From: Nitrospiria bacterium
GTDB lineage: Bacteria; Nitrospirota; Nitrospiria; JACQBZ01
NCBI GenBank assembly: GCA_035498035.1
Contig: DATKAN010000061.1
Span: 19,720 to 83,719, forward strand
Direction: 5' to 3'
Length of the DNA: 64,000 nucleotides
Shown: piece by piece, positions 37,401-57,364 of the stretch
How the letters are laid out: each line of letters opens with the position of its first letter
Numbering within the stretch: position 1 is the first letter of the stretch
Program-made: the position numbers and the translations under genes
The notes under the pieces: model-generated
Databases searched by the model: none
What the model was told of the DNA's origin: nothing
Seen by the model: the letters and a program-made list of their open reading frames with translations, nothing else

Positions 37401-39489
37401 TTTCCTGTTGGCCGATATGGCCGGCGAGATCTTTCGTCTGGACTGTCTGACTTATCGCATCGGTTGGCTGAAAGACAATCGCGATAAGCTGGGAGAGGCC
37501 TATACCGACCCTCTTCTGATGCTGGGCGAACGGGCCGTATGGCGAACCGAACGACGGCTGGAACGGCTCGATCGACGTTATCGTCGGGAGGCGGAGCGAC
37601 CGGCGAAGGGCCTCTACGCCCCGGAGGCGATCGCGGCCGATGTCGCTCTGGAGCGGATGGGGAAGAAACCGACGGCCGAACCAAGGCCGGAGGGCCGACT
37701 GGAACGACCGCTTCGGATTCTCTGTCTGCTCCGACGGGTGGCCGATATCGCTCCCACCCCGCGGCTCAGAGAAGGACACCTGTCCGAAATCGTTTGGCGT
37801 TTAAACCCCTCCGACGAAGCCGCGGTCCGCATGGCGACCGGCTTAAAAAAGACCGGCGGCTCATCCAAGACGGTTCATATCGCATTGTCCGGGGGACCCG
37901 AAGCCGAACCCCAGCTCCGCTGGGCCCTGGGGTACGGGGCCGACGCGGCCTACCGCATCGACGCATCCGCGACGGCCGACGGCTCCGCTTGGATCGAGGC
38001 GATTACCCTTCTTGAAAAATCCGGAAAGTACGACCTGATTCTGACCGGGTCCGCCTCGGAAGACGGCGCCGAGGCCCTCGGGCCTTTCGTGGCCGGTGCC
38101 CTGTCGCGCCATTTTGGGAGGGCCTCTTCCATGGAGATCGTGGAGGAGGGCCGCGGGCTTGCGGTCCGGTCGGGCGCGGATGACTCGAAGATCAAGGTGC
38201 TTCCGACGGAGCCCTTGGTCCTGGCTTGGGAAGGATCCGACGCCCCCCGTCCCATGGAGATCAACCGATTGATCGAGGGGAGGCTGGCCCCCATCCGGCG
38301 CTTATCGGTTCAGGAGAAGGTGGTCCCCGAACGATTATCCCCCGCCCGTACGGTCGTCCGCAAAAGCGAAACGATCCGTGAGCTGGGCGGGGTGGCCGAG
38401 TACCTTGACGCCTATCGGGTCGGAGTCCGGGCGATGGAGGCCGAGCCCTATCGATCGAGGATCGATTCTATGCCCCTTCCGACCGGACCGGCGGTCTGGA
38501 CAATTATTGAAGCGCAGCAACGCAAGATGATTCCGGCCCTGCTGGGCGCGGCCAATTTCCTGGGACGGTCTCTGGAACTGAACAGCTATGCCGCGGTATT
38601 GGGGCCGGAGGAGACCTGGCCGCAGCTGAGCGGCCTGGCACAGGCCCGCGGCTTGACCGGGACGGTCTGCATTCCGGCTCCCGAAGGTCTGTTGACTGAA
38701 TCCGGCCGGATGGAATGGCTTGAAAACTTTTCAAGCGTTGTCCCGAATATCCGGATCGTCTGCGGCCCGCACTGGTCCGATGCCCTTGCGCATTTGTCGG
38801 GACGTATCAACGGCAAAGGCTCCCTGCTTTTCACCGAGGTGACCGAGATCGACCGACGCGAGGGCCTCTCGCTTTTTAAACCGGCCTACGGGGGGAAATT
38901 GCGGCGATCCGTCAACCCGGTCCTTTCGCAGACCCCCCATTTGCTTATGACGGTCTCCCCGACCGCCGATTTTCCGTCGGGCGAACCCTCGGCCCGATTC
39001 GCGGCCGGGAAGGCGGAGGTAAAAACAATCGCTGTCAATCCCGACCGCTTCGAATCCGTGCCTCCGCTTTCCCTGGATGACCTGGCCTCGGCCGAGGTGA
39101 TTATCGACATCGGATACGGCGTCCGGAATCAGGAAGGATTTCATCTCGTGGGCCGGCTCAAGGAGGCTATGGAACATTTGGGCCTGACGGTTCATCTCGG
39201 CGCGACGCGCAAAGTGACCCAAGATCTTAAACTCCTCCCGCTTTCGCACCAGATCGGCCAGACCGGGGCGAGGGTGAATCCGAAATTGATTCTCGCGCTG
39301 GGCATTTCCGGGGCGCCACAGCACATGGACTACATCGGCGACCGCGCCGTGATCTTCGCCTTCAACAAAGACCCCCAGGCCCCGCTCATGAAACTCAACG
39401 AAACCCGCCCGGCACCCGTCGTCCATCCGATCGTCGGCGATCTTTTCGTTACCATTCCGAAATTGATCGAGATGCTGTCGGCAAAATAA
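31420..39489 (+). CDS. Giant fusion: ETF:quinone oxidoreductase (FixC plus FixX-like 4Fe-4S) - degenerate ACAD - VLCAD-like acyl-CoA dehydrogenase - ETF-beta - ETF-alpha (~2,690 aa)
   Basis: One uninterrupted frame containing VIVIGCGPAG (31441); CPARVY...NCIKCESC (33331-33423); FALTEPTAGSD (~36226), LNGAKMWITNG (~36598), IYEGTNEVQR (~37189); ETF-beta LNPSDEAAV...ALGYGAD; ETF-alpha GATRK, QIGQTG, GISGAPQH, NKDPQAP. Start at ATG 31420 after AAAGGA. Confidence 0.85.
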   Translation: MKRFRFDVIVIGCGPAGASAAVTLARAGLSVLVLEAGVYAGAENWSGCVYFAENLAEPDAFGEAAVTAAPYERRLVRRGIFLHNGLDLVGLSYQNQDTFRHCYTVLRPVYDPYWADKVQTQGAMLLPQTTVTSLIRRGGRVVGVETEHGPVYADVTFIAEGDASHLIRRERLERVSEPHFMQGVKAVLSLPPTVIDERFHLSPGEGCAHEYLIRNGQMGGQTAHLNIGAFLYTNRDSLSFGYVVPLENLKEAYRGDHSRLLEWLRGLPHFKPLLKDAALSAYGTKLIRSGGLREQPLLVEDGLAVGGAAAGLGIDLPYPNFTGPSSASGLLFARAVRGLLHDGQSITADRLRQSYLEPLQASVYGQNAAFLSSWPEYLENSRTFFGRSADLACGLVHFLTQPNARLWQAARFLRGHLSIRTLREVFGDAAHMIRASGLKSALSASLKPYLLGRWTAALFRPGLKAHPGFQFRIEILDRPAVDIQKFPWPLRPVLTRLLPGLAEGMKIVYANDGRPLSEKFREASRSVLERLKITDGITLPVFVLFLATLALVSVLFDFIRYYLFRQPVEKVLGGPVTDYLHTQQTLRDLDQAKTVDSFEAKLATNSYRLGHRSHIRVLWPEELAHHGDLAQSSLWSVCPARVYQYDPPLVGRGVVMVNYENCIKCESCWHAAGDQVRWGRHTDHRLIYRPDSESIQILLGQKPPSSPPRPPREESGPRPDPKPGVSIQGPHREILAALSDSLASVFRAVCAFETAVEHIPASADATRREWPRKIGGMTTQRMGALASLLSSEKITEAFSVSGFSDRIRMEWHQILQEDGKDLELQLSAGQEFHALSAARRIREEVVRPMIEAVDAILPPSDGMMGDRDRRPPEPNLGDRIAALFPDRIVKEWENSPIPSDARERLHYLFMEYADRPTSLIRALSSTSPALGLLAAGHTEALTILRQTGQPLRGDLCAIDAQVLSIQNAKEGPIIDGVVELVPLSLSKGLLIVCDNEAWQVPLGQPGLKTTPTPAVGFRSAGLHRLEFKAVKAHGPALPVGDGRRFGTDYAAVALGTADYLARRVKEHADGRVQFAHQMRDTQGRDGIAKLGAVKAMIARIEAWHLLLTVLLEEGIDPGPPEHFPGWPDLCATVATLAFGPQAGQMGYDAGQVFGGFAYSEDDLLSRAYRDSALFRFLPAGFGAAERLMRRLQENRDALESAVASRNRLWNEVRKGPLADTATRWDETTKRWMGLSSECDPALSGEAGALLLGAHRVLCQVQQKLEQALPVEGEAASSAVVIHLAEQAVDAMEFRRRDSPLLPIAVFPERPAAERVELPMSYEAICNPSSAGSSQPYQSGQYLLAPLDPSVRFVPEVQLHDPSLRDRWQGCTDWFLEHIWTKSFDGMHIERYVEKIHGIPDGTLEGFKKNGYFSTVIPSELDGGGWWKAEYYILTTAAGRFGDAGLLLVIMASTSIGTTPMLLGLEKELPLAVQELEPLARDPQQLGEIGDRLDRLIAGMKRPDPARLKKGFTELMSLVDSRIRHTRVVKYLAANFLKTFYAAAIAGQRRDLEGFRRGLAEAKPLFDILAPTIRLAVDELPRRERAHQFFLKKLGHGGISAFALTEPTAGSDTGGVKTTARPMSRPLTSLEDGRYRFSLTNDETPNHPSLRYIIDADRVRFDDRSGPSGMVYELPTGEGVPIRCDEYNYDTDEGLRYYVFRGQKIYFHDIAQIRVRDGKPVYDFYELNGAKMWITNGRVATQYCLYAQSPEGVTGFMVDRHAEGLKVGADERKMGQRGSPTNEIAIDQVRVPKECIIGYEGHGQVNALETLNVGRCGLAVASITLMRKLLLDAIEQVPSTPRRDRLLGEAAAILFGSDSMTFHLVGLFDRHTTESVRMESAIAKYVCSEDLHEVMTLIEEAYGPVGVTERYRVEKLRRDSRILNIYEGTNEVQRFLILKDLVALSKEWKPIPFPENSEPPSRLAFWKELLRGHVAAAAEPLGDTVWMDAVLQPTFFLLADMAGEIFRLDCLTYRIGWLKDNRDKLGEAYTDPLLMLGERAVWRTERRLERLDRRYRREAERPAKGLYAPEAIAADVALERMGKKPTAEPRPEGRLERPLRILCLLRRVADIAPTPRLREGHLSEIVWRLNPSDEAAVRMATGLKKTGGSSKTVHIALSGGPEAEPQLRWALGYGADAAYRIDASATADGSAWIEAITLLEKSGKYDLILTGSASEDGAEALGPFVAGALSRHFGRASSMEIVEEGRGLAVRSGADDSKIKVLPTEPLVLAWEGSDAPRPMEINRLIEGRLAPIRRLSVQEKVVPERLSPARTVVRKSETIRELGGVAEYLDAYRVGVRAMEAEPYRSRIDSMPLPTGPAVWTIIEAQQRKMIPALLGAANFLGRSLELNSYAAVLGPEETWPQLSGLAQARGLTGTVCIPAPEGLLTESGRMEWLENFSSVVPNIRIVCGPHWSDALAHLSGRINGKGSLLFTEVTEIDRREGLSLFKPAYGGKLRRSVNPVLSQTPHLLMTVSPTADFPSGEPSARFAAGKAEVKTIAVNPDRFESVPPLSLDDLASAEVIIDIGYGVRNQEGFHLVGRLKEAMEHLGLTVHLGATRKVTQDLKLLPLSHQIGQTGARVNPKLILALGISGAPQHMDYIGDRAVIFAFNKDPQAPLMKLNETRPAPVVHPIVGDLFVTIPKLIEMLSAK

Positions 39490-40058: not shown

Positions 40059-41900
40059 CTACGGTATCCGGACGATGCGTAAGGAATCCGGAACAGTTTC
40101 CCAAGTAATGACCGGCCCTTTTTCCTGCGTTTTCATCAACCCTTTGTGATCTTTGCGACCGAAGTAACTCGTCCCCAACGGCAGTCTTTTAATCACCTTA
40201 AACCCGGCCTCGCTGTGACAGATCTCGCATCGTGTTCCCAACTCGCCCTCATGAATGTCGTCTTTCTGGTGGCATCGAACGCACATGCGGGACGTTTTTT
40301 GGGAAAAGAGCTGTTTGACATGGCATTGCTCGCATTTCAATTGACTGTGCTTCATTACGAGCGCATAACCGGTCTCCTTCGCGTGATCAAAATCATCCCG
40401 TTTCCAGGTCTTCGCGGTGTGACAAGCCTCGCATTTTTTCCCGAAGTGCCCCTTGTGATAGTCGTCTTTTATATGACAATCGTTACAGACCGAGGAGGTG
40501 TCCTTGAAAAGCGCCGTCTTATGACATTCGGAACAGCGAACATCCCGGTGTTTGTCCAGAAGCTTAAAATTCGTTTTCTGATGGTCGAATTTCTGAATGT
40601 CCTTCCATCCCTTTTCCGTATGGCAGGTCTCGCAGGTATCCCCCAATTGCCCCTTGTGCTTATCGTCAGGCCGATGACACGAGGCGCATCGACTCGGGAT
40701 CTTGTAGGCCTCCTGGACATGGCATTTCGAGCAGGGAACGTCCAGATGCTTCCCGATGAGCGGATAGTCCGTCTTCGAATGATCGAAACCGATTTTCTTC
40801 CAATCCACGGCCGAATGGCAACGGGCGCATTCCCGTCCCAGTTTGCCTTTGTGGTAATCGTCCTCTTTATGGCACTCGACACAGGTCTTCGGCGTCGATT
40901 TCATGTCCGGAGTTTTATGACATTTCAGGCATTCCACGTTTTGATGTTTTCCGACCAGATTAAACCGGGTCTTGTCGTGGTCGAATAAAACGTCCTTCCA
41001 CTCCTTCACCGTGTGACATTGCGCGCATTGGGGACCGAGGACGCCCTTATGCCGGTCGACACGCTTATGGCACTCGACGCAGGTCTTCGGCGTTTCCCGA
41101 AGCTGAGGCGTTTTATGGCATTTATTGCATTCCACCTGGCGATGGCTTCCCAGCAGTTTAAATTCGGTTTTGTCATGGTCAAAGACAATGGCCTTCCAAT
41201 CCTTCACCGTATGACAGCTCTCGCACTGCTTGCCCAGAACCCCTTTGTGCTTGTCCTTGTTAAGATGACAGCCCACGCAGGCCATCGGCGTCGCCTTGAA
41301 ATTATCGGAGGCGTGGCATTTTTCACACGCGACCGGAGCATGTTTCCCCTCCAACGGAAACCGCGTGCGGGAATGGTCGAAGCTGATCTTCTTCCATGCC
41401 TCCGAATTATGGCAACGCTCGCAGGACTTTCCCAGCGCCCCTTTGTGCTTATCCTTTTCAAGGTGGCAGGAAAAACAATCGTGGGGGGTTTCTCGGAACT
41501 TCGGTTTTAGGTGGCAGCGATCGCATTTCGTGGTTTGATGCTTCCCGGACAATTCGAATTGCGTCTTTCCGTGGTCGAAGTGGGCGGAATCAAATTGGGC
41601 GATATGGCTTTCACGTCCCTTGTGTTCCGTGTGGCAGGTCTCGCACCGGGAGGCGTCGGTTTTTCCGTGGAAACCGGTCTTCAGTTCGACATCTTTTTTG
41701 ACTTCCTTGTGACAGGCCAGACATTTATCGTAAAAAACCTTTTTGACGAGATCATGACAATCCAGGCAGCGTCCTTCAGATTTTTCGTGGACCCGGGAAA
41801 CCTTCCCGGGCATCACACCCTTCAGGATGTCGAGCGCGTCGGCCGTCCCAACGGTTGCGAGACACCACACGAAAATTGCAAGGCCGAATTTTCTCCACAT
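40059..41900 (-). CDS. Periplasmic 24-heme c-type cytochrome with seven ~66-aa triheme repeats
   Basis: 24 CXXCH motifs counted; Sec signal MWRKFGLAIFVWCLATVGTADA; repeat FDH..T.F.L.GKH-CXXCH-CXXCH-D.HKG.LG-CXXCH-W. Confidence 0.92.
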   Translation of the reverse strand: MWRKFGLAIFVWCLATVGTADALDILKGVMPGKVSRVHEKSEGRCLDCHDLVKKVFYDKCLACHKEVKKDVELKTGFHGKTDASRCETCHTEHKGRESHIAQFDSAHFDHGKTQFELSGKHQTTKCDRCHLKPKFRETPHDCFSCHLEKDKHKGALGKSCERCHNSEAWKKISFDHSRTRFPLEGKHAPVACEKCHASDNFKATPMACVGCHLNKDKHKGVLGKQCESCHTVKDWKAIVFDHDKTEFKLLGSHRQVECNKCHKTPQLRETPKTCVECHKRVDRHKGVLGPQCAQCHTVKEWKDVLFDHDKTRFNLVGKHQNVECLKCHKTPDMKSTPKTCVECHKEDDYHKGKLGRECARCHSAVDWKKIGFDHSKTDYPLIGKHLDVPCSKCHVQEAYKIPSRCASCHRPDDKHKGQLGDTCETCHTEKGWKDIQKFDHQKTNFKLLDKHRDVRCSECHKTALFKDTSSVCNDCHIKDDYHKGHFGKKCEACHTAKTWKRDDFDHAKETGYALVMKHSQLKCEQCHVKQLFSQKTSRMCVRCHQKDDIHEGELGTRCEICHSEAGFKVIKRLPLGTSYFGRKDHKGLMKTQEKGPVITWETVPDSLRIVRIP

Positions 41901-41928
41901 CGGGCGTCCCGGCGGTCTCAACAATAAC

Positions 41929-42702
41929 TCAGAATATCAATACGGCGGCGATATGAACAATCAACGTGAAGGCGAGAATCCAAATAAACGGTACATGAAG
42001 CTTGTGCCAGTAGGAAAAAAGGCTTGTTGTGGCCTCCAGGGCCGAAACGTTCTTCTCGAGACGAATCCGCTTCACAATCAGGAATTCCAACGAGTCCGAT
42101 GACTTCATGGGATTTATGACAGGCATCCGGCCCTGGGAGCGGGAAAGCCGCCTGAGCTGCCTTCTCACCTTTTTCTCAAGACGGTCCAATCGGATCAGCA
42201 GGAAGAACGGCCCGAAGAACCCACGTGATTTTTTCTTTTCTCGACGGCTGAAAAAAGTTTGGATGGTCTCGAGGATGGTTTGCGATTCTGAAACTCGTTG
42301 GGAGATATTTCGATCCAATTGTTCGATTTCCTGGATCATCTCCTTTAATGTGGCCCGTTCCCCCGATAGAGAAAACTGGAAATGCCGATAAATATAGCGA
42401 CCGAATACGCCGCTGGCCACAACGATCAGCATCGCATAAAAGGCGATGGCCGCGTTGGGGGACTTGATGAAAAAACCGGTGTGGTACACGACCAAGAGCG
42501 GCCCGAGGATGCATAGCGTGATGTGGATGTCCAACCATCGGCTCATGTTTCCCAGACTTCGGAGCACCCGGATCCTTTTACGCAGCGCATACAAGAAGGC
42601 GCCCAAAAACATCATGGTGGACCCAATAATCCCGAGCATCAACGGAACAAATGATTTCGGGGAATAGGGATGCCCTGAAAAATAAATCGGCAGGGCGACC
42701 AC
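41929..42702 (-). CDS. Inner-membrane protein with conserved-looking His residues in TM helices (cytochrome b-like, PCC3 IMP-type); start uncertain
   Basis: WLDIHITL, VVYHTGF, WHKLHVP, LIVHIAA in hydrophobic segments; located between the porin and cytochrome genes. Confidence 0.72.
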   Translation of the reverse strand: MVALPIYFSGHPYSPKSFVPLMLGIIGSTMMFLGAFLYALRKRIRVLRSLGNMSRWLDIHITLCILGPLLVVYHTGFFIKSPNAAIAFYAMLIVVASGVFGRYIYRHFQFSLSGERATLKEMIQEIEQLDRNISQRVSESQTILETIQTFFSRREKKKSRGFFGPFFLLIRLDRLEKKVRRQLRRLSRSQGRMPVINPMKSSDSLEFLIVKRIRLEKNVSALEATTSLFSYWHKLHVPFIWILAFTLIVHIAAVLIF

Positions 42703-42830: not shown

Positions 42831-44666
42831 TCAGAACGGAATCGTGAGGCTGGTTCGGGTTTCCACCGTCGTCACCGTTCCGTTTGTGGTGTTGTTCTTA
42901 TCCATGTCGTAATCGGCGTCAAGGCTGAGCGAAATCCCGCTCCCGAAGGTGTAGATCAATGTGAATCCGGGGATGAGCCGCGTCGATTGGGTGGCGGAGG
43001 TTTTTATTTCAAAACGCTCCCAACGGCATCTCAAGGACGTTTGAAATTCTGGGCCCAAGTACTTTGAAAAGGTTCCCGTCACCGTTGTCGTTTGATAATC
43101 GGTCGTCGGCTGGAAAAGATAGAGCACTGTTCCAACCTCCGACCAGTGGAGCCCGTTTCGCTCGCTGAGAAAGACCGAATAGCGATCACCCTTCTTATCC
43201 GCCTTTCCGTCGTTGAAAACGATCGCCTGGAAGATCGTATGGGCGTACCTTAAATCGAGATGCCAGACCTTCGAAAAATCGACGGTGGTTCCCAGTCTGG
43301 CCTCCCGCGAATCGGTCGTATTTTTCAATGCGAGGGCCTGGAGATCGTTTCGTGTCAAAGTTTGCCGCGCAGCATCGAGCGACGTGATCGGCGGTGTTAT
43401 CAACGCGAGGGAGGGATCGATCAACGCCGTTTCGTAATCCAGAAAAGGATTCTTTCGATATTCGACCGCCGCGGAATACGAAGCGATCGCGTAATGGTAT
43501 TCAAAACTCAGTAATTTGTCGTTGAAATCTTTGAAGGCCAGGTCATAGTCCACTATGGAGGAAATGTTGATTGGATCATTCAACCAGTACCCGTTCAGTC
43601 CGACCGCATTTCGCGTTGAAAAACCGTTGTTGAACTCCTGGGTATAATAGATTTTTCCTCCAAGATGATAGAGATCATAGATCGAAAGGTAGGTATCGTA
43701 AAACAGGCGATCGTGCTGAATCTGGATTTTATTTCGATCGAACGGGTCGACCGCATAACCGACGCTGGTCGTCAAACCGAGCGTGTTGAAGGGCCGGAGA
43801 CCGAAGGCCAGTCCATCAAAGCGACTGAATAAGGTATTCCCGGAAGCCGGTTGTCGTCCGATGCGGAGGTCGACCATGGAACGAGGGTCGGACCAGTCCG
43901 CGAAAATTTTATTGAGTCTGTAGAAGGAGTTATCGGGGGTCAGAAAATCATCCGAATTCATACCGGAAAAATAGATTTTTAAATCCCCTCCGGCCGACTT
44001 CCTCCAGCGGAAATCCAAATATTCGTTCAAGCGGTTTTGTACCGTGGGAGTGGGGTCCGCCGGGGATGTTTGAGTATCATTATAATACTCCAACGTAAAA
44101 GCGCCGGAAAATTTTCCAAATGGGGCCGTTTCCTGTCGACGCACCGGAGAGAAAACCGGTTGAGGGGGGGTGCCTTGATTGCTGCCCGGGAGACTCTCCG
44201 ACTGAACCGCCGCACTCGACGGGCCGGTAGAAGGACCGTTCACAGAATCCGACCCGGTTGTCAGAGCCGCCAACCTCGCTTTTACTTCAGGGATATGTCT
44301 GCTTGAAGGAAAATTGCTGGTAAATAGCGTGTACTGCTGCACGGTGTCATTCCGTTTGCCCTGTTCATCCGCAATCCGGGCCAGGTACCATTGGGCCTCC
44401 TCCAAACCGGAGGGGTCCGTTTTCGTATCGATGAATCTATTGAAGATTACACGGGCCCGTTCTAAATCTCCTTTTTCAAACGCGTTGACCCCTTCCGCAA
44501 AATTTATCGACGGGCCGGAATCGGTTTTCAAAATGGGTTTGTTTCTACTCAAAGAACAACCGATCATCGTCAAAAAAAAAGTGGCCAACGCGAGACAAAA
44601 TGCCGCACGCGAGAGAAAAAAAACCCATCGTTCCACGGGGGCGTTAAAAACGACTGTAGTCAGCAT
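42831..44666 (-). CDS. Outer-membrane beta-barrel with N-terminal lipobox-like signal and TPR domain (porin of a porin-cytochrome conduit)
   Basis: FFLTMIG-C, TPR-like AQWYLARIA, Pro/Ser linker, alternating aromatic beta-strands, C-terminal ...SLTIPF. Start at ATG 44666 or GTG 44636. Confidence 0.72.
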   Translation of the reverse strand: MLTTVVFNAPVERWVFFLSRAAFCLALATFFLTMIGCSLSRNKPILKTDSGPSINFAEGVNAFEKGDLERARVIFNRFIDTKTDPSGLEEAQWYLARIADEQGKRNDTVQQYTLFTSNFPSSRHIPEVKARLAALTTGSDSVNGPSTGPSSAAVQSESLPGSNQGTPPQPVFSPVRRQETAPFGKFSGAFTLEYYNDTQTSPADPTPTVQNRLNEYLDFRWRKSAGGDLKIYFSGMNSDDFLTPDNSFYRLNKIFADWSDPRSMVDLRIGRQPASGNTLFSRFDGLAFGLRPFNTLGLTTSVGYAVDPFDRNKIQIQHDRLFYDTYLSIYDLYHLGGKIYYTQEFNNGFSTRNAVGLNGYWLNDPINISSIVDYDLAFKDFNDKLLSFEYHYAIASYSAAVEYRKNPFLDYETALIDPSLALITPPITSLDAARQTLTRNDLQALALKNTTDSREARLGTTVDFSKVWHLDLRYAHTIFQAIVFNDGKADKKGDRYSVFLSERNGLHWSEVGTVLYLFQPTTDYQTTTVTGTFSKYLGPEFQTSLRCRWERFEIKTSATQSTRLIPGFTLIYTFGSGISLSLDADYDMDKNNTTNGTVTTVETRTSLTIPF

Positions 44667-45807
44667 GCTCGTGACAATTGGCGCACATGGCATCAAGCGC
44701 GATGGACCGATGGTTCTCGTTCGGCCTGTAATCACGCGTGTGGCAGTTCGCGCACGCACCATACTGGGTGCCGTCCCGGTAAAACGGGGTCGAAAAATTT
44801 TGCGGGTGACAGACCGAGCAGTCCAGAGGAGCATGACCCCCGATTAATTTAGGGTTATCATGGGTCGCATAAGTGGCGGGGGTCCAGCCGGTCGTCTTAT
44901 GACAGGTGTCGCATTGAAGTGTGACCCCGGCGTGGTTTGCAGGCTTTCCGGTCGCCACCTGACCGTTGTGACAGTTCGAGCACTGCCCGGCCGCACTGGC
45001 ATCGTGAACATAGCCCGCGGGGGTCCATCCCGTCGTCTTATGACAGGTGTCGCACTGCGCCGTGGTCGGGACATGGTTCTGCGGCTTGCCAGTCGCATTT
45101 TGGCCGTTATGGCAGTTCGAGCACTGCCCGGCGGTGCTGGCATCGTGAACAAAACTCGTGGGGACCCATGCCTTCGTCTTATGACAGGTATCGCACTGCG
45201 CCGTGGTCGGGATGTGGTTCTGGGGCTTGCCCGTCGCCTTTTGGCCGTTGTGACAGTTCGAGCACTGCCCGGCCGCGCTGGCATCGTGGACATAGCCCGC
45301 GGGGGTCCATCCCGTCGTCTTATGACAGGTGTCGCACTGCGCCGTGGTCGGAACATGGTCCTGCGGCTTGCCCGTGGCCATCTGGCCGTTGTGACAGGTG
45401 GCGCACTGGCCGGCAACCAGAGCAAGATTATGATTAAAGGTTGCAGGTGACCAGGCATTGACGGAATGACAGACATTACATCCCTGATTCGTCATAATGT
45501 GATTCTGCGGCTTTCCATAAGAAATCTGATCATTATGGCAATTTTCACACTCCCTGGGAGTCGCACTATACTGCCCCCCCAAATGACACTGGGAGCATTT
45601 CAAGCCTCTATGCGCACCCAGAAGCTGAAAAGAGGTAGCATCATGATTGAAATTGGCTGGCGGCTCGTAATCGGCTGAACTTTTTGAGGACCTGCTCGTT
45701 GTTTCAGGTGTCGCCACTTGGTAGGAGAGAAAAACCATTCCCAAGATAATGCCTGTCAGAGCGGCCATAACAACAAAACCGGGTCTCCATATTGAAGACT
45801 GCCTCAT
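44644..45807 (-). CDS. 14-heme c-type cytochrome with tandem 47-aa diheme repeats
   Basis: 14 CXXCH motifs counted; N-terminal hydrophobic segment; SD AGGGGA before ATG 45807. Confidence 0.92.
   Translation of the reverse strand: MRQSSIWRPGFVVMAALTGIILGMVFLSYQVATPETTSRSSKSSADYEPPANFNHDATSFQLLGAHRGLKCSQCHLGGQYSATPRECENCHNDQISYGKPQNHIMTNQGCNVCHSVNAWSPATFNHNLALVAGQCATCHNGQMATGKPQDHVPTTAQCDTCHKTTGWTPAGYVHDASAAGQCSNCHNGQKATGKPQNHIPTTAQCDTCHKTKAWVPTSFVHDASTAGQCSNCHNGQNATGKPQNHVPTTAQCDTCHKTTGWTPAGYVHDASAAGQCSNCHNGQVATGKPANHAGVTLQCDTCHKTTGWTPATYATHDNPKLIGGHAPLDCSVCHPQNFSTPFYRDGTQYGACANCHTRDYRPNENHRSIALDAMCANCHEHADYSRF
44875..45414 (-). repeat. About four intragenic 141-bp tandem repeats
   Basis: GGGTCCATCCCGTCGTCTTATGACAGGTGTCGCACTGCGCCGTGGTCGG recurs at 45021 and 45303, with related copies at 44880 and 45162; spacing exactly 141 nt. 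Confidence 0.92.
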
Positions 45808-45829
45808 TTTGTTTTCCCCTATTTCAGAC

Positions 45830-45864
45830 AAAAAAATAGCCGCCAAAGGATTTCCTCTGGCGGC
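45830..45864 (-). terminator. Intrinsic terminator forming the riboswitch expression platform
   Basis: Minus strand GCCGCCAGAGG-AAAT-CCTTTGGCGGC-TATTTTTTT; the 5' arm overlaps the 3' strand of aptamer P1. Confidence 0.85.
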
Positions 45865-45952
45865 CCGGCGAGCATGTCCCAAACCTTAAATTCGGGAGTT
45901 AGCCCCGTTGCACTGCGTCCCCATCTTTCGATGGGTTTGCTCTGATCAAAGG
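45854..45952 (-). ncRNA. GEMM-I (c-di-GMP-I family) riboswitch aptamer, A20 variant (candidate 3',3'-cGAMP sensor)
   Basis: Minus strand CCTTTG ATCAGA GCAAA CCCATC GAAA GATGGG GACGCA GTGCAACGGGGCTAA CTCCCGAA..TTTGGGA CATGCTCGCCGGGCCGC CAGAGG. It shows a 6-bp P1 (CCUUUG/CAGAGG), a GAAA tetraloop P2, a CUAA/CAUG receptor, and C44, A47, G83, C92 equivalents. Confidence 0.85.
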
Positions 45953-45992: not shown

Positions 45993-46020
45993 ATTTTACC
46001 AAATTTATTATATTTGTCAA
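45993..46020 (-). promoter_or_regulatory. Sigma70 promoter for the riboswitch / cytochrome operon
   Basis: Minus strand TTGACA-N16-TAAAAT with extended TGn; about 40 nt upstream of the aptamer. Confidence 0.65.
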
Positions 46021-51557: not shown

Positions 51558-52235
51558 TTACAAAAGCCGGTGATGATCAAACTGCAGTAGACGGGTAATA
51601 ACGGCGCCATTCTCATTGAAACTCACCCGCCGGATGGCCGGGAGGTAAATTCCGTTGACAACGGCATGGTTGTCCCAATAGGTTTCGACCTGACGCAAGG
51701 CACCGTCCCCCGGTGAAAAATAAAAGACCGCGTAGCGGGTGGTCAGGGCCTTGCCGTCATTGGTTGTGAGACTGTCCTCGACATTGATCGTGAATTTGAC
51801 CCGTTCCATACTGCGGTTAATTTGGGTGATCCGGTCGTCATGGATACGGTAACGCGAATTCATGCCGTCCCCATGGATTATCAACAGGCGGCCCATCGGA
51901 TGATGGTCTTCTTCACCTAGGGTAAGAGAGTACTTCCCGTCCGATTCTTCATACGTGCGGGGGGCCCGATGCACGGCCATCATGCCGATTTGACCCTCAG
52001 CCCATTTCTTCAGATCCTCGTGCTCAAGATGGACCGTGACCTCACGGGCCGAGTGAACCTTCACATGGCCTTCGGATATTCGTCCGCCCTCTCGACACGT
52101 TAAATCGGCCATGAAGCCTTTGAAATCCTGCGGCCAGCGGAATGTTTTCTCAAAGGCGCGGCGGAGTAAATCATGGGCGGCAGGATCATCCGCTACAGTT
52201 CCGCTACTCTCCGTCTTTCTCTGATACGTCTCCAT
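51558..52235 (-). CDS. DUF3386-like hypothetical protein
   Basis: AHDLLRRAFEKTFRWPQDFKGF...HRAPRTYEE pattern (recalled); start at ATG 52235 after AAAGGAGA. Confidence 0.55.
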   Translation of the reverse strand: METYQRKTESSGTVADDPAAHDLLRRAFEKTFRWPQDFKGFMADLTCREGGRISEGHVKVHSAREVTVHLEHEDLKKWAEGQIGMMAVHRAPRTYEESDGKYSLTLGEEDHHPMGRLLIIHGDGMNSRYRIHDDRITQINRSMERVKFTINVEDSLTTNDGKALTTRYAVFYFSPGDGALRQVETYWDNHAVVNGIYLPAIRRVSFNENGAVITRLLQFDHHRLL

Positions 52236-52273
52236 GGTGATCTCCTTTCCGTTTATACTTTTGATGGGGACTT

Positions 52274-53509
52274 TCAATGGGACTGAATTTTCTTTTCCGA
52301 CCCAAACTGGGCTTCAAAATTCAACGCCTGTGCTCCCCGAAGAATTTTAAGGATCGCATGGTCACCCGGCTGTTTGAAACTCATAAGATGAATCAGATCG
52401 GAAGGTTCAAGGATCGATTGACCATCAAACGAAACAATAATATCTCCCTCCCGAATACCGGTTTTCAAGGCGGTTGAATCAGGCATCACTTTGCGAACCG
52501 TCACGCCTTTCTCGGTTTTGTCAACCTGGACGCCCAAATGGACGCTCTGGTCCTCCAAATCTTTATAACCGTCGGCCCACACAAAATCGGCGAGGTAGAG
52601 CGGAATGGAGACCGGTTGAACGTCCATAAGTAGGTCCTTTCGACTTTCCGGCACCTCCTCCGTGTATGGCATGACGATCTCATAGGGTTCCGGCAGTCGC
52701 CGGAACACTCTTCGCGGTACTCCGAATCCATAGTTGACGTGGAACCCTCCCGTAAAGACGACCATTTTTTTTCCACGTCCCTCGGGACTGGAGAGATAGG
52801 TTGAGATGGTTTGTGCCATCGTTTCATCCCAAATCAACATTGTTTCGTAAAACCGCTCGAAACCCTCATCCCCGTGCGCATGGCCCCCAAACACCGCCTT
52901 GAGGGAGTTTCGATGGTATGGATCCTCACGATCCATTTCGGGCAGCTCTTTTTCCAGGTTTTCCGACAACCCTTCCGTCCCCTTCTTCATGATCTCGTGG
53001 ACCAGTTCATCGGGTGCATTCAGAGCGATCAAAGGAATTTTCTTGTCGCGACTGTAGCGGAGAATCGCACGATAATAATTGTAGGACTGATCCCAATTGT
53101 CATACCAGACTTTGATAAATTCTTTTTCATCCATTTGACCATGGCTCCATCGGTTCAATTGATCCTGAGACGGCTTTTGGAACATCTCCATCCCAACAAC
53201 CCATTGTCCCGGAAACTGCTTCCACAGTCCCTGCAAGACCTCCAGTTCCACTTGATGATCTTCAAGATTGGTATGGGTTTCTCCCACATAGACGATCCGT
53301 GAACTGGACAGGATATGAAACATCTGTTCCTTGGTAACCTCGATGCCGGTGGGCAGATGAAGTATCGTCCCTGGTTTGAGAGTTCCCAAATCTCGGTATG
53401 GCGACTCCGAGAAAACCTCCTTTAAACGGGATGGAGGTTCGACAACACAGCCAGAAACATCTACAACGATGATGGATAACAAAACGAAGGGGAGAATATA
53501 CCGGATCAT
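52274..53509 (-). CDS. ChaN-family lipoprotein with C-terminal PDZ domain
   Basis: Lipobox VSG-C, YVGETH, GMEMF, WDETMA, GGFHVNYGFGVP; PDZ LGVQV...GIREGDII. Confidence 0.8.
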   Translation of the reverse strand: MIRYILPFVLLSIIVVDVSGCVVEPPSRLKEVFSESPYRDLGTLKPGTILHLPTGIEVTKEQMFHILSSSRIVYVGETHTNLEDHQVELEVLQGLWKQFPGQWVVGMEMFQKPSQDQLNRWSHGQMDEKEFIKVWYDNWDQSYNYYRAILRYSRDKKIPLIALNAPDELVHEIMKKGTEGLSENLEKELPEMDREDPYHRNSLKAVFGGHAHGDEGFERFYETMLIWDETMAQTISTYLSSPEGRGKKMVVFTGGFHVNYGFGVPRRVFRRLPEPYEIVMPYTEEVPESRKDLLMDVQPVSIPLYLADFVWADGYKDLEDQSVHLGVQVDKTEKGVTVRKVMPDSTALKTGIREGDIIVSFDGQSILEPSDLIHLMSFKQPGDHAILKILRGAQALNFEAQFGSEKKIQSH

Positions 53510-53736
53510 TTTTTCTCCATAAGAGATGCAGGGGGATTAATCGTATCACAGGATGTCGTAATCCTGTCAAGAAGAGAGGCCCGAGGTCCATTGCAACCGT
53601 GGCGGAGATCTTATATTAGAATCACAACGGTCGCGCGGAAGAAGTTAGATTTGGACGATAAAAATTGCAAGGACTTCCCAGTGTGGTGACGACGGTTATC
53701 ACGGGCCTTGGATGCAGACCAACTGGAAAAAGGGAT

Positions 53737-54336
53737 TCAAAGTTGAAGGATGATGGAAAGAATTTCGGTCCTTGAATTGACTTTTAATCGCCTCATGATG
53801 TGTTTTAAATGCCCTTTGATCGTATCTTCAGAAACACAAAGAGCATCGGCGATTCGCTTATTGGTCAATCCGGAAAAAAGGTGTTTAACAATTTCCATTT
53901 GGCGATTGGTTAATTGAAAGCGGCTTCTTAATTTTTCCAGATCAATTTGTCGATGTTGCGAAACCTTCTCGATCAACATCATGATATGAAAAGCCTGCCC
54001 CGCTTGAGCGTCATCGCCGTTGAGAGGGAACCCTCTACAACAATACATCGCATCCTGGGTCGAAAACAAGGAAATTTGAGGGGCGACCTGAGCCTGATGA
54101 TCATCGCGACATGCCAAATAACTCTTTTTAAGATTTTCGTACAAATTAAAAATTTCTTTTGGGATCGTAACACCCATCATAAGATGATCGGAGTCCGAAT
54201 GGTTTCCGTTTACTTTGGAAAGGATTCCTAACGCGACCGGATTAAAAAAAACAGGTTCTTGACGATGGTTGAAGACAAGAATACCAGGCACTGAGCGCCT
54301 GTTTGCAACCTCGAGAAGATCCATATACACCCTCAT
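53737..54336 (-). CDS. LuxR-type HTH transcriptional regulator with N-terminal PAS-like region
   Basis: LTNRQMEIVKHLFSGLTNKRIADALCVSEDTIKGHLKHIMRRLKVNSR. Confidence 0.88.
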   Translation of the reverse strand: MRVYMDLLEVANRRSVPGILVFNHRQEPVFFNPVALGILSKVNGNHSDSDHLMMGVTIPKEIFNLYENLKKSYLACRDDHQAQVAPQISLFSTQDAMYCCRGFPLNGDDAQAGQAFHIMMLIEKVSQHRQIDLEKLRSRFQLTNRQMEIVKHLFSGLTNKRIADALCVSEDTIKGHLKHIMRRLKVNSRTEILSIILQL

Positions 54337-54377
54337 ATGTGGTGTGAAGGAAGGGACCTACAAGGTACTTGAGCTAA

Positions 54378-54406
54378 AACATACAATAACTCAAGATCCT
54401 TGTCAA
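54378..54406 (-). promoter_or_regulatory. Sigma70-type promoter of the LuxR-type gene
   Basis: Minus strand TTGACA-N17-TATGTT. Confidence 0.5.
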
Positions 54407-54712
54407 CACATTTTATGATAGGATTTCCTTGTTAATAAACTATTCATAAAGCGGTTAATTCATGAGCAATTATCGGCTCATAATCCTGCTCAGATCCATA
54501 GGAATCTTGCGCAGGGTCCGAATCGCACATTTCCAGCTGTTGATCGCATCGTGCTATCTTGATCCAACCCGTTTGGATAATGGTAAAAAAAAATGGAACC
54601 CCCTTGATTTTCCTTGACATTGCCCCATATAAATGTTATGTATATAACAATTCTGTATTATGTATCCTATTCTAATTTCAACCGTAAACTCGTATTTTGA
54701 TCTAAAGAGGCA

Positions 54713-55042
54713 ATGAGTATAGAACCAGATAAAGATGAGCGACGCCGGTCAAAACGGTCTTCTCTCTCGGAAAAAGCCACTTGTGAGGTTAGCAGTCACC
54801 TGCTTTTACACAAGGCCCGAGGAAATCAGTCCACCACGATCATCAATTCAAATATCAAAAATATCAGTGAAGGAGGCGTCTGCCTCATGACAAAAGAACG
54901 CTTGGAAACTTCCCAGATTGTGAAGATCAGCCTTCCCCTCCCCCATGTTAAAATGAGTACTCCAACACTGGCAGAGGTCAGATGGGTTAGGAAAGACCCA
55001 GGCAAACGCCTCTATCGCGCCGGCCTACGTTTTCTTTTATAA
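54713..55042 (+). CDS. PilZ domain protein
   Basis: ERRRSKR (RxxxR) and NISEGG (D/NxSxxG), EVRWV, YRAGLRF. Confidence 0.88.
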   Translation: MSIEPDKDERRRSKRSSLSEKATCEVSSHLLLHKARGNQSTTIINSNIKNISEGGVCLMTKERLETSQIVKISLPLPHVKMSTPTLAEVRWVRKDPGKRLYRAGLRFLL

Positions 55043-55283
55043 ACATGCCCTGTGCCTCAACTGTTCTATTTCGTCTGCTAAGAATAAGCCTCGACCATTT
55101 GTATAAAAAGATTAAATATAACAATAAATTAAAATAATTTAATCATGTTTTATTATAAGATTTTTAATATTTACTTTTAATCGTACTGGACTGGATGGAA
55201 CAGCTTTAAATCGTCGCCTTGAATTTGTTCAAACCGTTTTGAAATCCTGGAAAAAATCCATGCTGCCACAGATAAATTCAAGG

Positions 55284-56483: not shown

Positions 56484-56492
56484 GCTCGCCGC

Positions 56493-56837
56493 CTATTCGT
56501 CTTCACGGTTCCGAAGGGAGAAAACCTGGGGATGATAATATTCACCCGTATCCAGAAACTCAACGCCCAGAAAAATCCCGTCGGCTTGTTTCGCAACCCA
56601 GCGGACTTTCCCGATGAGGACCTCATCAGCCCAAGACTCGTTTAGATCCCCCAATTGGCAATGAATCAGGAGGCGGTTATCAACATAAACGGGAAAATCC
56701 TCCATGATCGACAGACTTATACAGGAGCCGGCGTGAGATATATCTTTCACCATTCCGGAGAAACAGACCACATCCGTTGAAATATCGACTCGAAGCGGTC
56801 TGTATGGGGAAATGCGCGGGCCGGATCGCGGTTTCAT
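56493..56837 (-). CDS. PilZ-like domain protein
   Basis: PRISPYRP, DISHAG, GKVRWV, LGVEF. Confidence 0.7.
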   Translation of the reverse strand: MKPRSGPRISPYRPLRVDISTDVVCFSGMVKDISHAGSCISLSIMEDFPVYVDNRLLIHCQLGDLNESWADEVLIGKVRWVAKQADGIFLGVEFLDTGEYYHPQVFSLRNREDE

Positions 56838-56947
56838 CCTCTTTCTCCAATTTCGTATATATATTTACACGTTACAGATCATTCTGTCAATCATTTCGGT
56901 CGGCGTGATCCACATCCCGATCCCTAACCAAAACAAGGGATTTCCAT

Positions 56948-56988
56948 AAAAAATGGGGCGCAGTGCCAAATGGCACCGCGCCCCATTT
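56948..56988 (-). terminator. Intrinsic terminator after the small secreted protein gene
   Basis: Minus strand ATGGGGCGCGGTGCC-ATTT-GGCACTGCGCCCCAT-TTTTT. Confidence 0.85.
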
Positions 56989-57004
56989 CGAAACATTCGC
57001 AGAG

Positions 57005-57271
57005 TTACTTCTTTTCAATGGTCTTGACGGATTTGGCATGACCCTTCGCCACATCCACCTCGACCATTTCCCCCACCTTAACGTCACCGGTTTTCTGAGT
57101 GGTGTTGTCAAAATGGATCTTGTGCTCCTTCCCCTTTTTATCCTTTACAAAGTAGAATGAGCCCTTGTCGTCGATTTTGGTTACCTCGCCCGCAATCATA
57201 CCGGCCCAGCTCATGCCTACAAAGGACAGGACGACTACGGCCATTACAAGACTGGATAGAACCCTCTTCAT
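57005..57271 (-). CDS. Small secreted beta-rich (OB-fold-like) protein
   Basis: Signal peptide ending SWA, GEVTKID...VKVGEMVEV; strong SD GAGAGGGGG. Confidence 0.7.
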   Translation of the reverse strand: MKRVLSSLVMAVVVLSFVGMSWAGMIAGEVTKIDDKGSFYFVKDKKGKEHKIHFDNTTQKTGDVKVGEMVEVDVAKGHAKSVKTIEKK

Positions 57272-57364
57272 ATTTACTCACCCCCTCTCGTGTACTGATT
57301 TAATAACTACCCTTACGTGATCCCGCTCGTTTATGATGGCTTTCTATGCATCCTGATCTGATTT

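What the first reader, a model, noticed from the sequence alone, without database searches (positions are those of the whole stretch)
45854..45952. Candidate cGAMP-sensing (GEMM-Ib-like) riboswitch heading the porin-cytochrome operon
The full GEMM-I fold is readable, with a clean 6-bp P1. The nucleotide just 5' of GCAAA (position 20 in Vc2 numbering, base 45941) is A, not G. A20 is the hallmark of Geobacter riboswitches that bind 3',3'-cyclic AMP-GMP and control extracellular electron transfer cytochromes. The same logic on a PCC3-like conduit in a probably different phylum would extend cGAMP control of EET. Caveats: J2/3 reads AGU rather than AAA, P3 has mismatches, and A20 alone does not prove selectivity.
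Basis: partly seen in the sequence, partly recalled or inferred. Interest (0 to 1): 0.85.

Follow-up and report, generated by a model that had tools for sequence, protein, structure and literature searches.

The report
Cyclic-dinucleotide riboswitch controlling a cytochrome conduit operon
This is a real cyclic-dinucleotide riboswitch of a known class, carrying the A-for-G pocket change that permits cGAMP binding, and it switches on an outer-membrane cytochrome/porin operon in uncultured Nitrospirota; whether it senses cGAMP or c-di-GMP cannot be decided from sequence.

Summary
Rfam RF01051 (c-di-GMP-I/GEMM-I) matches the minus strand at 45951..45856 with 59.3 bits (threshold 35, E 4.7e-9). The base at Vc2 position 20 (window 45941) is A.

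Eleven distinct loci from Nitrospirota MAGs and metagenomes carry the same element in front of the same operon: 14-haem cytochrome, TPR-lipoprotein 22-strand barrel, 4-TM protein, 24-haem cytochrome. One relative is labelled Ca. Manganitrophaceae. All copies keep A20, A18, C46, A47 and C92, and P2 and P3 show compensatory changes.

A conserved terminator uses the 3' strand of P1, C92 and the end of P3 as its 5' arm. Ligand binding should therefore prevent termination, an ON switch built like the Geobacter pilM cGAMP riboswitch.

The cGAMP-selective reading is only partly supported:
- Apart from A20, the pocket looks like canonical Vc2 (J1/2 xUCAGA, P2 base GC/GC), not like Geobacter GEMM-Ib (ACAAUA, CU/GG).
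- Published data show that Vc2 G20A and a natural A20 riboswitch bind both ligands.
- No cGAMP synthase gene lies in the 64-kb window.

Verdict: a new member of a known class in a new phylum and gene context. The ligand is unresolved but directly testable.

The parts
45993..46020 (-). Sigma-70-type promoter: TTGACA (46020-46015), 16-nt spacer, extended -10 TGgTAAAAT (hexamer 45998-45993)
   Evidence: 11 of 12 consensus matches, with TG before the -10. The TTGACA...TGGTAAAAT pair sits at the same distance in most orthologous leaders; three use TTAGAAT, TTAAAGT or TGGTATAAA instead (sequences; alignment).
45947..45952 (-). P1 5' strand, CCUUUG
   Evidence: Pairs with CAGAGG (45859-45854). It forms in the MFE fold of the aptamer alone. 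It is paired in 11/11 relatives, with U-G alternating with U-A at one pair.
45941..45946 (-). J1/2, AUCAGA. The last base, 45941, is A at Vc2 position 20; A at 45943 corresponds to Vc2 A18
   Evidence: Rfam alignment. The trinucleotide A-G-A is invariant in 11/11 distinct relatives while the neighbouring J1/2 positions vary.
45915..45940 (-). P2: 2-bp base (GC/GC), AAA bulge, 6-bp stem, GAAA tetraloop
   Evidence: Four of the six upper pairs show compensatory changes among relatives.
45912..45914 (-). J2/3, A-G-U. A at 45914 corresponds to the intercalating A47; G at 45913 is invariant; the third base varies (U/C/A)
   Evidence: The position-43/103 'pair' of the Rfam model never forms (0/11). 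Inference: G45913 may pair with the invariant C45862, leaving the third base bulged.
45862..45911 (-). P3 with the tetraloop receptor (CUAA / AUG) and a variable distal loop
   Evidence: The receptor bases are invariant and one pair is compensatory. The A.G/A.A position is unpaired in 10/11.
45860..45861 (-). J3/1, G-C. C at 45860 corresponds to Vc2 C92, which forms a Watson-Crick pair with the ligand guanine
   Evidence: invariant. The role of C92/C75 is taken from PMC6140456 and PMC6274999.
45854..45859 (-). P1 3' strand, CAGAGG, shared with the terminator's 5' arm
45830..45865 (-). Intrinsic terminator: 12-bp stem (GGCCGCCAGAGG / CCUUUGGCGGCU), loop AAAU, then A plus U7. The 3' arm begins with CCUUUG, a copy of the P1 5' strand
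   Evidence: It is the MFE structure of the full leader, where it replaces P1 and the base of P3 (-54.2 kcal/mol, z -4.1). It is 97% paired in 11 relatives.
44644..45807 (-). First regulated gene: multihaem cytochrome c, 387 aa, 14 CxxCH motifs, N-terminal hydrophobic anchor or signal
   Evidence: (Cytochrome_C7, Cytochrom_CIII, c3_2). Orthologues follow the riboswitch in all relatives.
42831..44693 (-). Outer-membrane barrel ('porin'): lipobox Cys, TPR-like N-domain, predicted 22-strand beta-barrel
   Evidence: AF2 pLDDT 81; strands 194-619. Foldseek top hits are AlgE, OprD-family and usher barrels. No Pfam barrel family was hit.
41929..42702 (-). Conserved 257-aa membrane protein (about 4 TM segments), no Pfam family
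   Evidence: Conserved in all related operons.
40059..41924 (-). Second multihaem cytochrome c, about 610 aa, 24 CxxCH motifs (repeated c7-type units), Sec signal peptide

Best explanation
This is a functional GEMM-I class cyclic-dinucleotide riboswitch of the A20 variant type. It acts as a transcriptional ON switch for a four-gene porin-cytochrome operon in a Nitrospirota bacterium of a Troglogloeales-like lineage.

Transcription starts about 30 nt upstream of P1 from a strong sigma-70 promoter. Without ligand, the strand GGCCGCCAGAGG pairs with the downstream CCUUUGGCGGCU. That strand comprises the end of P3, G91, C92 and the 3' half of P1. The resulting 12-bp terminator, followed by U7, stops transcription before the first cytochrome gene.

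When a 3',3'-cyclic dinucleotide binds the three-way junction, P1 (CCUUUG/CAGAGG) and P3 are locked. The ligand's guanine pairs with C92, A47 intercalates, and the second purine faces A20. The terminator's 5' arm is then unavailable and RNA polymerase reads through.

Ligand: the pocket should accept both 3',3'-cGAMP and c-di-GMP. Except for A20 it is a canonical c-di-GMP pocket, so it resembles the bispecific Vc2 G20A mutant. My estimates are about 0.7 that it binds cGAMP at least comparably to c-di-GMP in vitro, about 0.35-0.4 that cGAMP is the physiological signal, and about 0.5 that c-di-GMP is.

Shown: the fold, its conservation and covariation, the pocket identities, the mutually exclusive terminator, and the gene context. 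Inferred: the ON logic in vivo and the ligand.
For: - Class and fold: RF01051 at 59.3 bits, E 4.7e-9. The aptamer's MFE structure is P1/P2/P3.
- Conservation: 13 copies (11 distinct) lie in front of the orthologous operon at 50-64 bits.
- Covariation: 5 pairs carry compensatory changes, and 0/500 shuffles reach the observed values.
- Pocket: A18, C46, A47 and C92 are retained and position 20 is A in all copies.
- ON switch: the full-leader MFE forms the terminator at the expense of P1 and the P3 base. The terminator is found by the scan and is 97% paired in relatives. Its 3' arm repeats the P1 5' strand. The same arrangement, with the terminator sequestering the ligand-pairing C, is described for the pilM cGAMP ON switch (PMC9262584).
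- Bispecific expectation: Vc2 G20A binds at 53 nM (c-di-GMP) and 120 nM (cGAMP); Cbe 1-2 binds at 30 and 463 nM.
- Operon content.
- Phylum.
Against: - No binding or termination assay exists, so the ligand call rests on analogy.
- P1 and the terminator show only one-sided changes and no compensatory ones, so their pairing is supported by conservation and energetics, not covariation.
- J2/3 (AGU instead of AAA) and the U.C and A.G non-pairs at the base of P3 depart from the family consensus next to the pocket. They could change affinity or specificity in ways that analogy with Vc2 does not predict.
- The 13 copies descend from one ancestor, so an invariant A20 is weaker evidence of selection than the count suggests.
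Confidence: 0.85

Rival explanations
1. A strictly cGAMP-selective GEMM-Ib riboswitch. The organism makes 3',3'-cGAMP through a Hypr GGDEF or another synthase, and this signal, not c-di-GMP, turns on the conduit, as in Geobacter.
For: - A20 is invariant in 13/13 copies while the flanking J1/2 bases vary.
- The ON-switch platform has the same design as pilM.
- The regulated genes are multihaem cytochromes and an outer-membrane barrel, the kind of genes in the Geobacter cGAMP regulon (PMC6456294).
- One MAG has a duplicated 'riboswitch + cytochrome' unit, reminiscent of the many cytochrome-linked copies in Geobacter.
Against: - J1/2 and the P2 base differ from the validated Geobacter members: pilM and Gs1761 have ACAAUA + CU/GG, whereas this RNA has xUCAGA + GC/GC as in Vc2.
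- A20 alone gives bispecific RNAs.
- No GGDEF or SMODS gene lies in the 64-kb window or in the fetched flanks (and gene tables 34-41, 50-53).
- No paper linking Hypr GGDEFs or cGAMP to Nitrospirota was found.
Confidence: 0.35
2. An ordinary c-di-GMP riboswitch in which A20 merely tunes affinity. c-di-GMP, the usual surface-attachment signal, induces the conduit, and cGAMP plays no role in this organism.
For: - The pocket is canonical except at position 20.
- A natural A20 riboswitch prefers c-di-GMP (Cbe 1-2).
- A PilZ-domain gene lies next to the operon in L025.
- From my own knowledge, c-di-GMP signalling is near-universal and A20 occurs in a sizeable minority of GEMM-I RNAs in phyla without known cGAMP signalling.
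Against: - G at position 20 gives much tighter c-di-GMP binding (picomolar for Vc2). Yet not one of 13 copies has reverted by this single transition.
- The gene association mirrors the cGAMP regulon, not the c-di-GMP regulon, of Geobacter.
Confidence: 0.45
3. A decayed or non-regulatory remnant of a riboswitch, or a chance CM hit. The hairpin would be just an attenuator or a terminator of an upstream transcript.
For: Two non-standard positions in P3 and a non-consensus J2/3.
Against: - E 4.7e-9 with full-length model coverage.
- Conserved with compensatory changes across loci whose porin is only 46-76% identical.
- The non-standard positions are themselves conserved features of the clade.
- Promoter, aptamer, terminator and start codon keep their order and spacing in all relatives.
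- There is no upstream gene on this strand; the neighbour is divergent.
Confidence: 0.03

Closest known systems
c-di-GMP-I (GEMM-I) riboswitch, Rfam RF01051; type example Vibrio cholerae Vc2
   Same: - Three-helix junction.
- GAAA tetraloop in P2 docking on a CUAA/AUG receptor in P3.
- Pocket residues A18, C46, A47 and C92.
- J1/2 ...CAG-N and a GC/GC base of P2, as I recall the Vc2 sequence.
- Scores well above the family threshold.
   Different: - Position 20 is A, not G.
- J2/3 is A-G-U instead of AAA, and its model partner is C instead of U.
- One A.G non-pair in P3.
- It behaves on paper like the engineered Vc2 G20A mutant, which binds c-di-GMP and cGAMP about equally.
GEMM-Ib cGAMP riboswitches of Geobacter (pilM of G. 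metallireducens; Gs1761, PDB 4YAZ; Gm0970)
   Same: - A at the position-20 equivalent (A14).
- The ligand-pairing C (C75) is retained.
- 6-nt J1/2.
- Transcriptional ON switch in which the terminator's 5' arm is the aptamer's own 3' strand, including that C.
- Controls extracellular-electron-transfer-type cytochromes.
   Different: - J1/2 sequence: ACAAUA in Geobacter against A/C/U-U-C/A-A-G-A here.
- P2 base pairs: C-G and U.G in Geobacter against G-C and C-G here.
- J2/3 differs.
- The host phylum is Nitrospirota, not Desulfuromonadales.
- The regulated conduit is a PCC operon of a lineage whose cultured relatives oxidise Mn(II) rather than reduce metals.
- Selectivity for cGAMP is untested.
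Cbe 1-2, a natural A20 GEMM-I riboswitch of Clostridium beijerinckii
   Same: A natural A20 variant outside the Deltaproteobacteria. It shows that A20 RNAs can bind both ligands.
   Different: A Firmicute with a different gene context.
Porin-cytochrome (PCC) clusters of Nitrospirota ('Ca. Manganitrophus' PCC_1-3) and PCC3 of Fe(II)-oxidising Gallionellaceae
   Same: An outer-membrane barrel plus multihaem cytochromes plus a conserved membrane protein in one operon. The barrel's homologues occur only in Nitrospirae, Manganitrophaceae-labelled MAGs and metagenomes.
   Different: - Which of the published PCC types this operon corresponds to was not tested.
- No riboswitch is mentioned in the Manganitrophaceae comparative-genomics paper.
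- More distant PCC loci (porin 38-48% identical) lack the riboswitch.

Membership tests
GEMM-I / c-di-GMP-I riboswitch (RF01051) | Covariance-model score at or above the curated gathering threshold over the full model | tested here: met
   59.3 bits against GA 35, model positions 1-87/87, E 4.7e-9. Orthologues score 50.2-64.1 bits.
GEMM-I / c-di-GMP-I riboswitch (RF01051) | P2 capped by a GNRA tetraloop, with the tetraloop receptor in P3 | tested here: met
   The GAAA loop and the CUAA/AUG receptor bases are invariant in 11 distinct sequences. The docking itself is inferred.
GEMM-I / c-di-GMP-I riboswitch (RF01051) | Pocket residues A18, C46, A47 and C92 (Vc2 numbering) | tested here: met
   All four are present and invariant. 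The residue list comes and the roles.
GEMM-I / c-di-GMP-I riboswitch (RF01051) | G at position 20, which reads the second guanine of c-di-GMP | tested here: not met
   A at 45941 and in all 13 related copies.
GEMM-I / c-di-GMP-I riboswitch (RF01051) | Helices supported by covariation | tested here: met
   Five pairs carry changes on both sides (4 in P2, 1 in P3), and 0/500 shuffles reach this. P1 shows only a one-sided change.
GEMM-Ib (cGAMP) riboswitch subclass | A at position 20 (A14 of Gs1761) | tested here: met
GEMM-Ib (cGAMP) riboswitch subclass | Selective binding of 3',3'-cGAMP over c-di-GMP | not testable with these tools
   This needs in-line probing, ITC or a reporter. Literature shows that A20 alone does not give selectivity.
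GEMM-Ib (cGAMP) riboswitch subclass | Sequence signature of the validated Geobacter members around the pocket (J1/2 ACAAUA; P2 base C-G, U.G) | tested here: not met
   Based on the pilM sequence from the PMC9262584 supplement and the Gs1761 anatomy. This RNA has AUCAGA and G-C/C-G. This is a resemblance criterion, not a formal definition of the subclass.
GEMM-Ib (cGAMP) riboswitch subclass | Host encodes a cGAMP synthase (a Hypr GGDEF with Ser/Thr at the PleD-D344 position, or a DncV-type CD-NTase) | tested here: inconclusive
   No GGDEF or SMODS domain was found in any large ORF of the 64-kb window or in the gene tables of the fetched loci. The rest of the genome could not be searched.
GEMM-Ib (cGAMP) riboswitch subclass | ON switch: the terminator competes with P1, P3 and the ligand-pairing C | tested here: met
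   compared with pilM. This is a computational result only.
Porin-cytochrome (PCC) conduit operon | Outer-membrane beta-barrel encoded beside periplasmic or extracellular multihaem cytochromes | tested here: met
   The barrel is a 22-strand model with pLDDT 81 and Foldseek hits to OM barrels. The cytochromes have 14 and 24 CxxCH motifs and match Pfam c7/c3 families. Electron-transfer function and direction were not tested.

The most novel reading that the evidence does not exclude
This would be an independently evolved cGAMP-selective branch of GEMM-I in Nitrospirota. Its signature would be A20 together with the clade-specific G48/C90 and a bulged nucleotide 49, and it lacks the Geobacter ACAAUA/CU signature. 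If so, cGAMP (Hypr-GGDEF-type) signalling would govern an outer-membrane electron conduit in relatives of the Mn(II)-oxidising 'Ca. Manganitrophus'. Cyclic-dinucleotide control of extracellular electron transfer would then be convergent across phyla and across the oxidative and reductive directions.
Probability: 0.3. Interest if true: 0.75.

Novelty: new member of a known kind. Interest (0 to 1): 0.5.

Why it matters
Riboswitch control of extracellular-electron-transfer cytochromes by a cyclic dinucleotide has been worked out only in Geobacter. Here the same class of switch, with the same pocket substitution and the same ON-switch design, heads a porin-cytochrome operon in an uncultured Nitrospirota lineage. 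That lineage is related to the only known Mn(II)-oxidising chemolithoautotrophs.

This gives three things:
- A concrete regulatory input for a candidate metal-oxidation or metal-reduction conduit whose function is otherwise only guessed.
- A 105-nt RNA that can be tested in a few days for cGAMP against c-di-GMP.
- A natural 'Vc2 G20A-like' sequence that could show which features besides A20 set ligand selectivity, which the literature I read leaves open.

If the ligand turns out to be c-di-GMP, this is a routine annotation with a useful physiological hint: the conduit is induced in the surface-attached state.

Tried and rejected
1. Founding papers. I tried to read the two 2015 PNAS papers that defined GEMM-Ib (PMC4418906, PMC4418907) and the Hypr GGDEF paper (PMC4763787). 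None is held. The subclass features therefore come from later open papers, and what I recall beyond them is marked as memory.

2. Riboswitch in more distant PCC loci. There is no RF01051 match, even at E <= 1, in L004, L006, L007, L009, L013, L016, L026 or L028.
   - L004, L006 and L007 are probably cut off before the leader.
   - L009, L013, L016, L026 and L028 contain the upstream region and lack the element.
   - The riboswitch is therefore confined to the thiolase-syntenic clade plus L025.

3. cGAMP or c-di-GMP enzymes. I scanned every large ORF of the window against Pfam. No GGDEF, EAL, HD-GYP or SMODS domain was found.

4. Targeted search for Hypr GGDEFs in the same MAGs. I considered this and dropped it.

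5. Literature. Searches for any link between Nitrospirota or Manganitrophus and riboswitches, cGAMP or Hypr GGDEFs found nothing relevant.

6. Mechanical ORF 44644..45882 (412 aa, TTG) that overlaps the aptamer. Rejected as a gene start. The ATG at 45807 matches the orthologues' gene calls and lies downstream of the terminator.

7. c-di-AMP as ligand. Rejected, because C92 is retained; published c-di-AMP binding by this fold needed C92U as well.

Full report
**1. What is at the site**

A scan of the whole window against Rfam at gathering thresholds gives one hit. It is RF01051 (c-di-GMP-I, the GEMM-I riboswitch) on the minus strand, 45951..45856, at 59.3 bits against a threshold of 35. The E-value is 4.7e-9 and the full model is covered.

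Read 5'->3' on the minus strand, the elements are:

| Element | Sequence | Window coordinates |
|---|---|---|
| P1 5' strand | CCUUUG | 45952-45947 |
| J1/2 | AUCAGA | 45946-45941 |
| P2 (GC base, AAA bulge, 6-bp stem, GAAA loop) | | 45940-45915 |
| J2/3 | A-G-U | 45914-45912 |
| P3 with CUAA/AUG receptor | | to 45862 |
| J3/1 | G-C | 45861-45860 |
| P1 3' strand | CAGAGG | 45859-45854 |

The base aligned to Vc2 G20 (model position 11) is A at 45941. The bases aligned to A18, C46, A47 and C92 are unchanged. These are the residues listed as ligand contacts for Vc2, and the Gs1761 equivalents are A12, A41 and C75.

J2/3 is AGU rather than AAA, and P3 has two non-standard positions, U.C and A.G.

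The aptamer alone folds into P1+P2+P3 as its minimum-free-energy structure (-36 kcal/mol, z = -2.2).

**2. Surroundings**

Upstream on the same strand is a near-consensus promoter: TTGACA, 16 nt, TG-n-TAAAAT, at 46020-45993.

Immediately after the aptamer, and overlapping it, is an intrinsic terminator. Its stem is 45865-45838 (GGCCGCCAGAGG / CCUUUGGCGGCU), with loop AAAU, followed by A plus U7. A purine-rich ribosome-binding site and the ATG at 45807 come next.

Four co-directional genes follow:
- a 387-aa cytochrome with 14 CxxCH motifs;
- a 620-aa protein with no Pfam barrel family;
- a 257-aa protein with about four membrane helices;
- a roughly 610-aa cytochrome with 24 CxxCH motifs built from c7/c3-type repeats.

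I modelled the 620-aa protein from an alignment of 29 homologues. The model has mean pLDDT 81, a TPR-like helical domain at residues 65-149, and 22 beta-strands from 194 to 619. Foldseek places it among outer-membrane barrels such as AlgE, the OprD/Occ family and pilus ushers.

'Porin-cytochrome operon' is therefore a fair description. The direction of electron flow is unknown.

The neighbour on the other side is a divergent thiolase/FadB pair.

**3. Whose genome**

Homologues of the barrel protein exist only in metagenomes, in MAGs that NCBI names 'Nitrospirae bacterium', and in one named 'Candidatus Manganitrophaceae bacterium' (GCA_004297235.1). The last is placed in the phylum Nitrospirota, order Ca. 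Troglogloeales.

The window's housekeeping genes are 62-72% identical to those beside the operon in MAG GCA_016201865.1 (holB, tmk, SMC). The thiolase is 86-92% identical across the syntenic loci.

The host is therefore a Nitrospirota lineage, not a Geobacter relative. The comparative-genomics paper on Manganitrophaceae proposes porin-dodecahaem PCC complexes as candidate Mn(II) oxidation machinery and does not mention a riboswitch.

**4. Conservation**

I fetched 28 related loci and scanned them with Rfam. RF01051 matches at 50.2-64.1 bits lie in the leader of the orthologous operon in L001, L002/L003/L017 (identical), L008, L018, L019, L020 (two copies), L023, L025 and L029.

Every copy has A at position 20 (...AGAGCAAAC...) and C at position 92. 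Most leaders show a recognisable TTGACA...TGGTAAAAT promoter, and all have a terminator with a U-tract.

On an alignment of the 11 distinct sequences, 91.6% of cells in my aptamer structure form standard pairs. Five pairs carry changes on both sides, four in P2 and one in P3. None of 500 shuffles reaches the observed values, and sliding the partners collapses pairing to 38-54%.

P1 is invariant except for U-G alternating with U-A. The two non-standard P3 positions stay non-standard (0/11 and 1/11 paired), so they are features of the clade and not decay.

Within J1/2 the last three bases, A-G-A, are invariant while the first and third positions vary.

The element is absent even at E <= 1 from more distant PCC loci that include the upstream region: L009, L013, L016, L026 and L028, whose porins are 38-48% identical. 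The switch therefore belongs to one sub-clade plus L025.

**5. How it most likely works**

The full leader's minimum-free-energy structure keeps P2 and distal P3 but replaces P1 and the base of P3 with the 12-bp terminator (-54.2 kcal/mol, z = -4.1).

The terminator's 5' arm is the aptamer's own 3' end: the last bases of P3, then G91, C92 and the P1 3' strand. Its 3' arm starts with CCUUUG, a copy of the P1 5' strand.

The two folds are mutually exclusive. A ligand that locks P1, P3 and C92 should block terminator formation, making this a transcriptional ON switch.

This is the architecture described for the G. metallireducens pilM cGAMP riboswitch, in which the terminator sequesters the ligand-pairing C75.

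The terminator is 97% paired across relatives but shows no compensatory change. This step therefore rests on conservation and energetics.

**6. Which ligand**

C92 is retained, so one ligand base should be guanine. c-di-AMP is unlikely, because published c-di-AMP binding by this fold required G20A together with C92U.

A20 is what lets this fold accept adenine at the other site. But A20 is not selectivity:
- Vc2 G20A binds c-di-GMP at 53 nM and cGAMP at 120 nM.
- The natural A20 riboswitch Cbe 1-2 binds c-di-GMP (30 nM) better than cGAMP (463 nM).
- The authors state that the determinants of selectivity remain open, with P1 stability as one candidate.

I compared the pocket with sequences I could obtain. 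The validated cGAMP switch pilM has J1/2 ACAAUA and a C-G/U.G base of P2, and the anatomy of Gs1761 matches that layout. The Nitrospirota RNAs have (A/C/U)U(C/A)AGA and a G-C/C-G base. This is the canonical arrangement I recall for Vc2 (CACAGG, GC) with only G20 changed.

On paper, then, this is a natural 'Vc2 G20A'. I expect it to bind both ligands.

Two further considerations do not settle the matter. The invariant G at the second J2/3 position faces an invariant C where the family has U, and the third position varies freely (U/C/A). This suggests a G-C pair closing P3 with one bulged base. That is my inference, and its effect on specificity is unknown.

No GGDEF, EAL, HD-GYP or CD-NTase gene is present among the large ORFs of the window. 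This says little about a whole genome.

My estimates:
- about 0.7 that it binds cGAMP at least comparably to c-di-GMP in vitro;
- about 0.35-0.4 that cGAMP is the physiological signal;
- about 0.5 that c-di-GMP is.

**7. Comparison with what is known, and novelty**

Membership of GEMM-I is met on score, architecture, covariation and four of five pocket residues. The fifth, G20, is replaced, as in the GEMM-Ib subclass.

Membership of GEMM-Ib in the functional sense, meaning cGAMP selectivity and a cGAMP-producing host, could not be tested. The Geobacter sequence signature around the pocket is not met.

A20 variants outside the Deltaproteobacteria are already known (Cbe 1-2). Any Rfam-based pipeline would label this element 'c-di-GMP-I'.

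What I could not find in the searchable literature is any report of this riboswitch in Nitrospirota or in front of a porin-cytochrome operon.

I therefore rate it a new member of a known kind, with a worthwhile and easily tested hypothesis attached.

**8. Verdict**

- Observation: confirmed.
- Interpretation: partly supported.
- Confidence that this is a functional cyclic-dinucleotide ON switch for the operon: 0.85.
- Interest: 0.5.
- Most novel reading not excluded: an independently evolved cGAMP-selective branch controlling a metal conduit in relatives of Mn-oxidisers. Probability about 0.3; interest if true 0.75.

Noticed in passing
window 31339-39489 (+): A single 2716-aa ORF fuses an N-terminal FAD/NAD oxidoreductase domain, acyl-CoA dehydrogenase middle and C-terminal domains, and ETF-beta-like and ETF-alpha domains. 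It lies convergent to the cytochrome operon. Orthologues of 2600-2700 aa sit in the same position in L022, L024, L029, L018, L004 and L007. This is an unusual giant flavoprotein fusion next to an electron conduit.
   Followed up: partly
L020 4925-5013 and 6688-6776: MAG GCA_016201865.1 carries a tandem duplication of the unit 'A20 riboswitch + first cytochrome gene'. The upstream cytochrome copy reads in two overlapping frames (5049-5753 and 5590-6423). This could be a frameshifted pseudogene or an assembly error.
   Followed up: partly
L025 37-3947 and 10411-10983: In the Manganitrophaceae-labelled MAG, the riboswitch-led operon is preceded by two dCache proteins and a histidine kinase, followed by a PilZ-domain gene, and contains an extra small ferredoxin gene. 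PilZ hints at c-di-GMP signalling nearby.
   Followed up: no
L026, L027, L028: More distant versions of the operon insert a Pyr_redox_2 flavoprotein and a small Fer4 ferredoxin between the barrel and the membrane protein. L026 and L028, which include the upstream region, lack the riboswitch; L027 has only about 50 nt upstream, so it cannot be judged.
   Followed up: partly
window 57500-60002: A FIST-domain sensor protein (57500-58708, +) lies next to a 421-aa five-haem cytochrome with weak NrfA/c552 and c554 similarity (58737-60002, -). No Rfam element is associated with them.
   Followed up: no
window 51558-54336 (-): A cluster of a DUF3386 protein, a ChaN-type haem-binding protein fused to a PDZ domain, and a LuxR/GerE-type regulator. 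It may be related to haem or iron handling.
   Followed up: no
window 26001-30000 and 52001-58000: Two stretches have G+C of 0.46-0.50 against 0.55-0.62 elsewhere. The first covers a TPR protein, a DUF4388 protein and a TrkA_C protein. Possible foreign origin was not examined.
   Followed up: no
window 44844-45476, both strands: Long mechanical ORFs of 166-210 aa run on both strands inside the first cytochrome gene. They reflect its repeated CxxCH-module sequence (three near-identical units of about 47 aa), not separate genes.
   Followed up: partly
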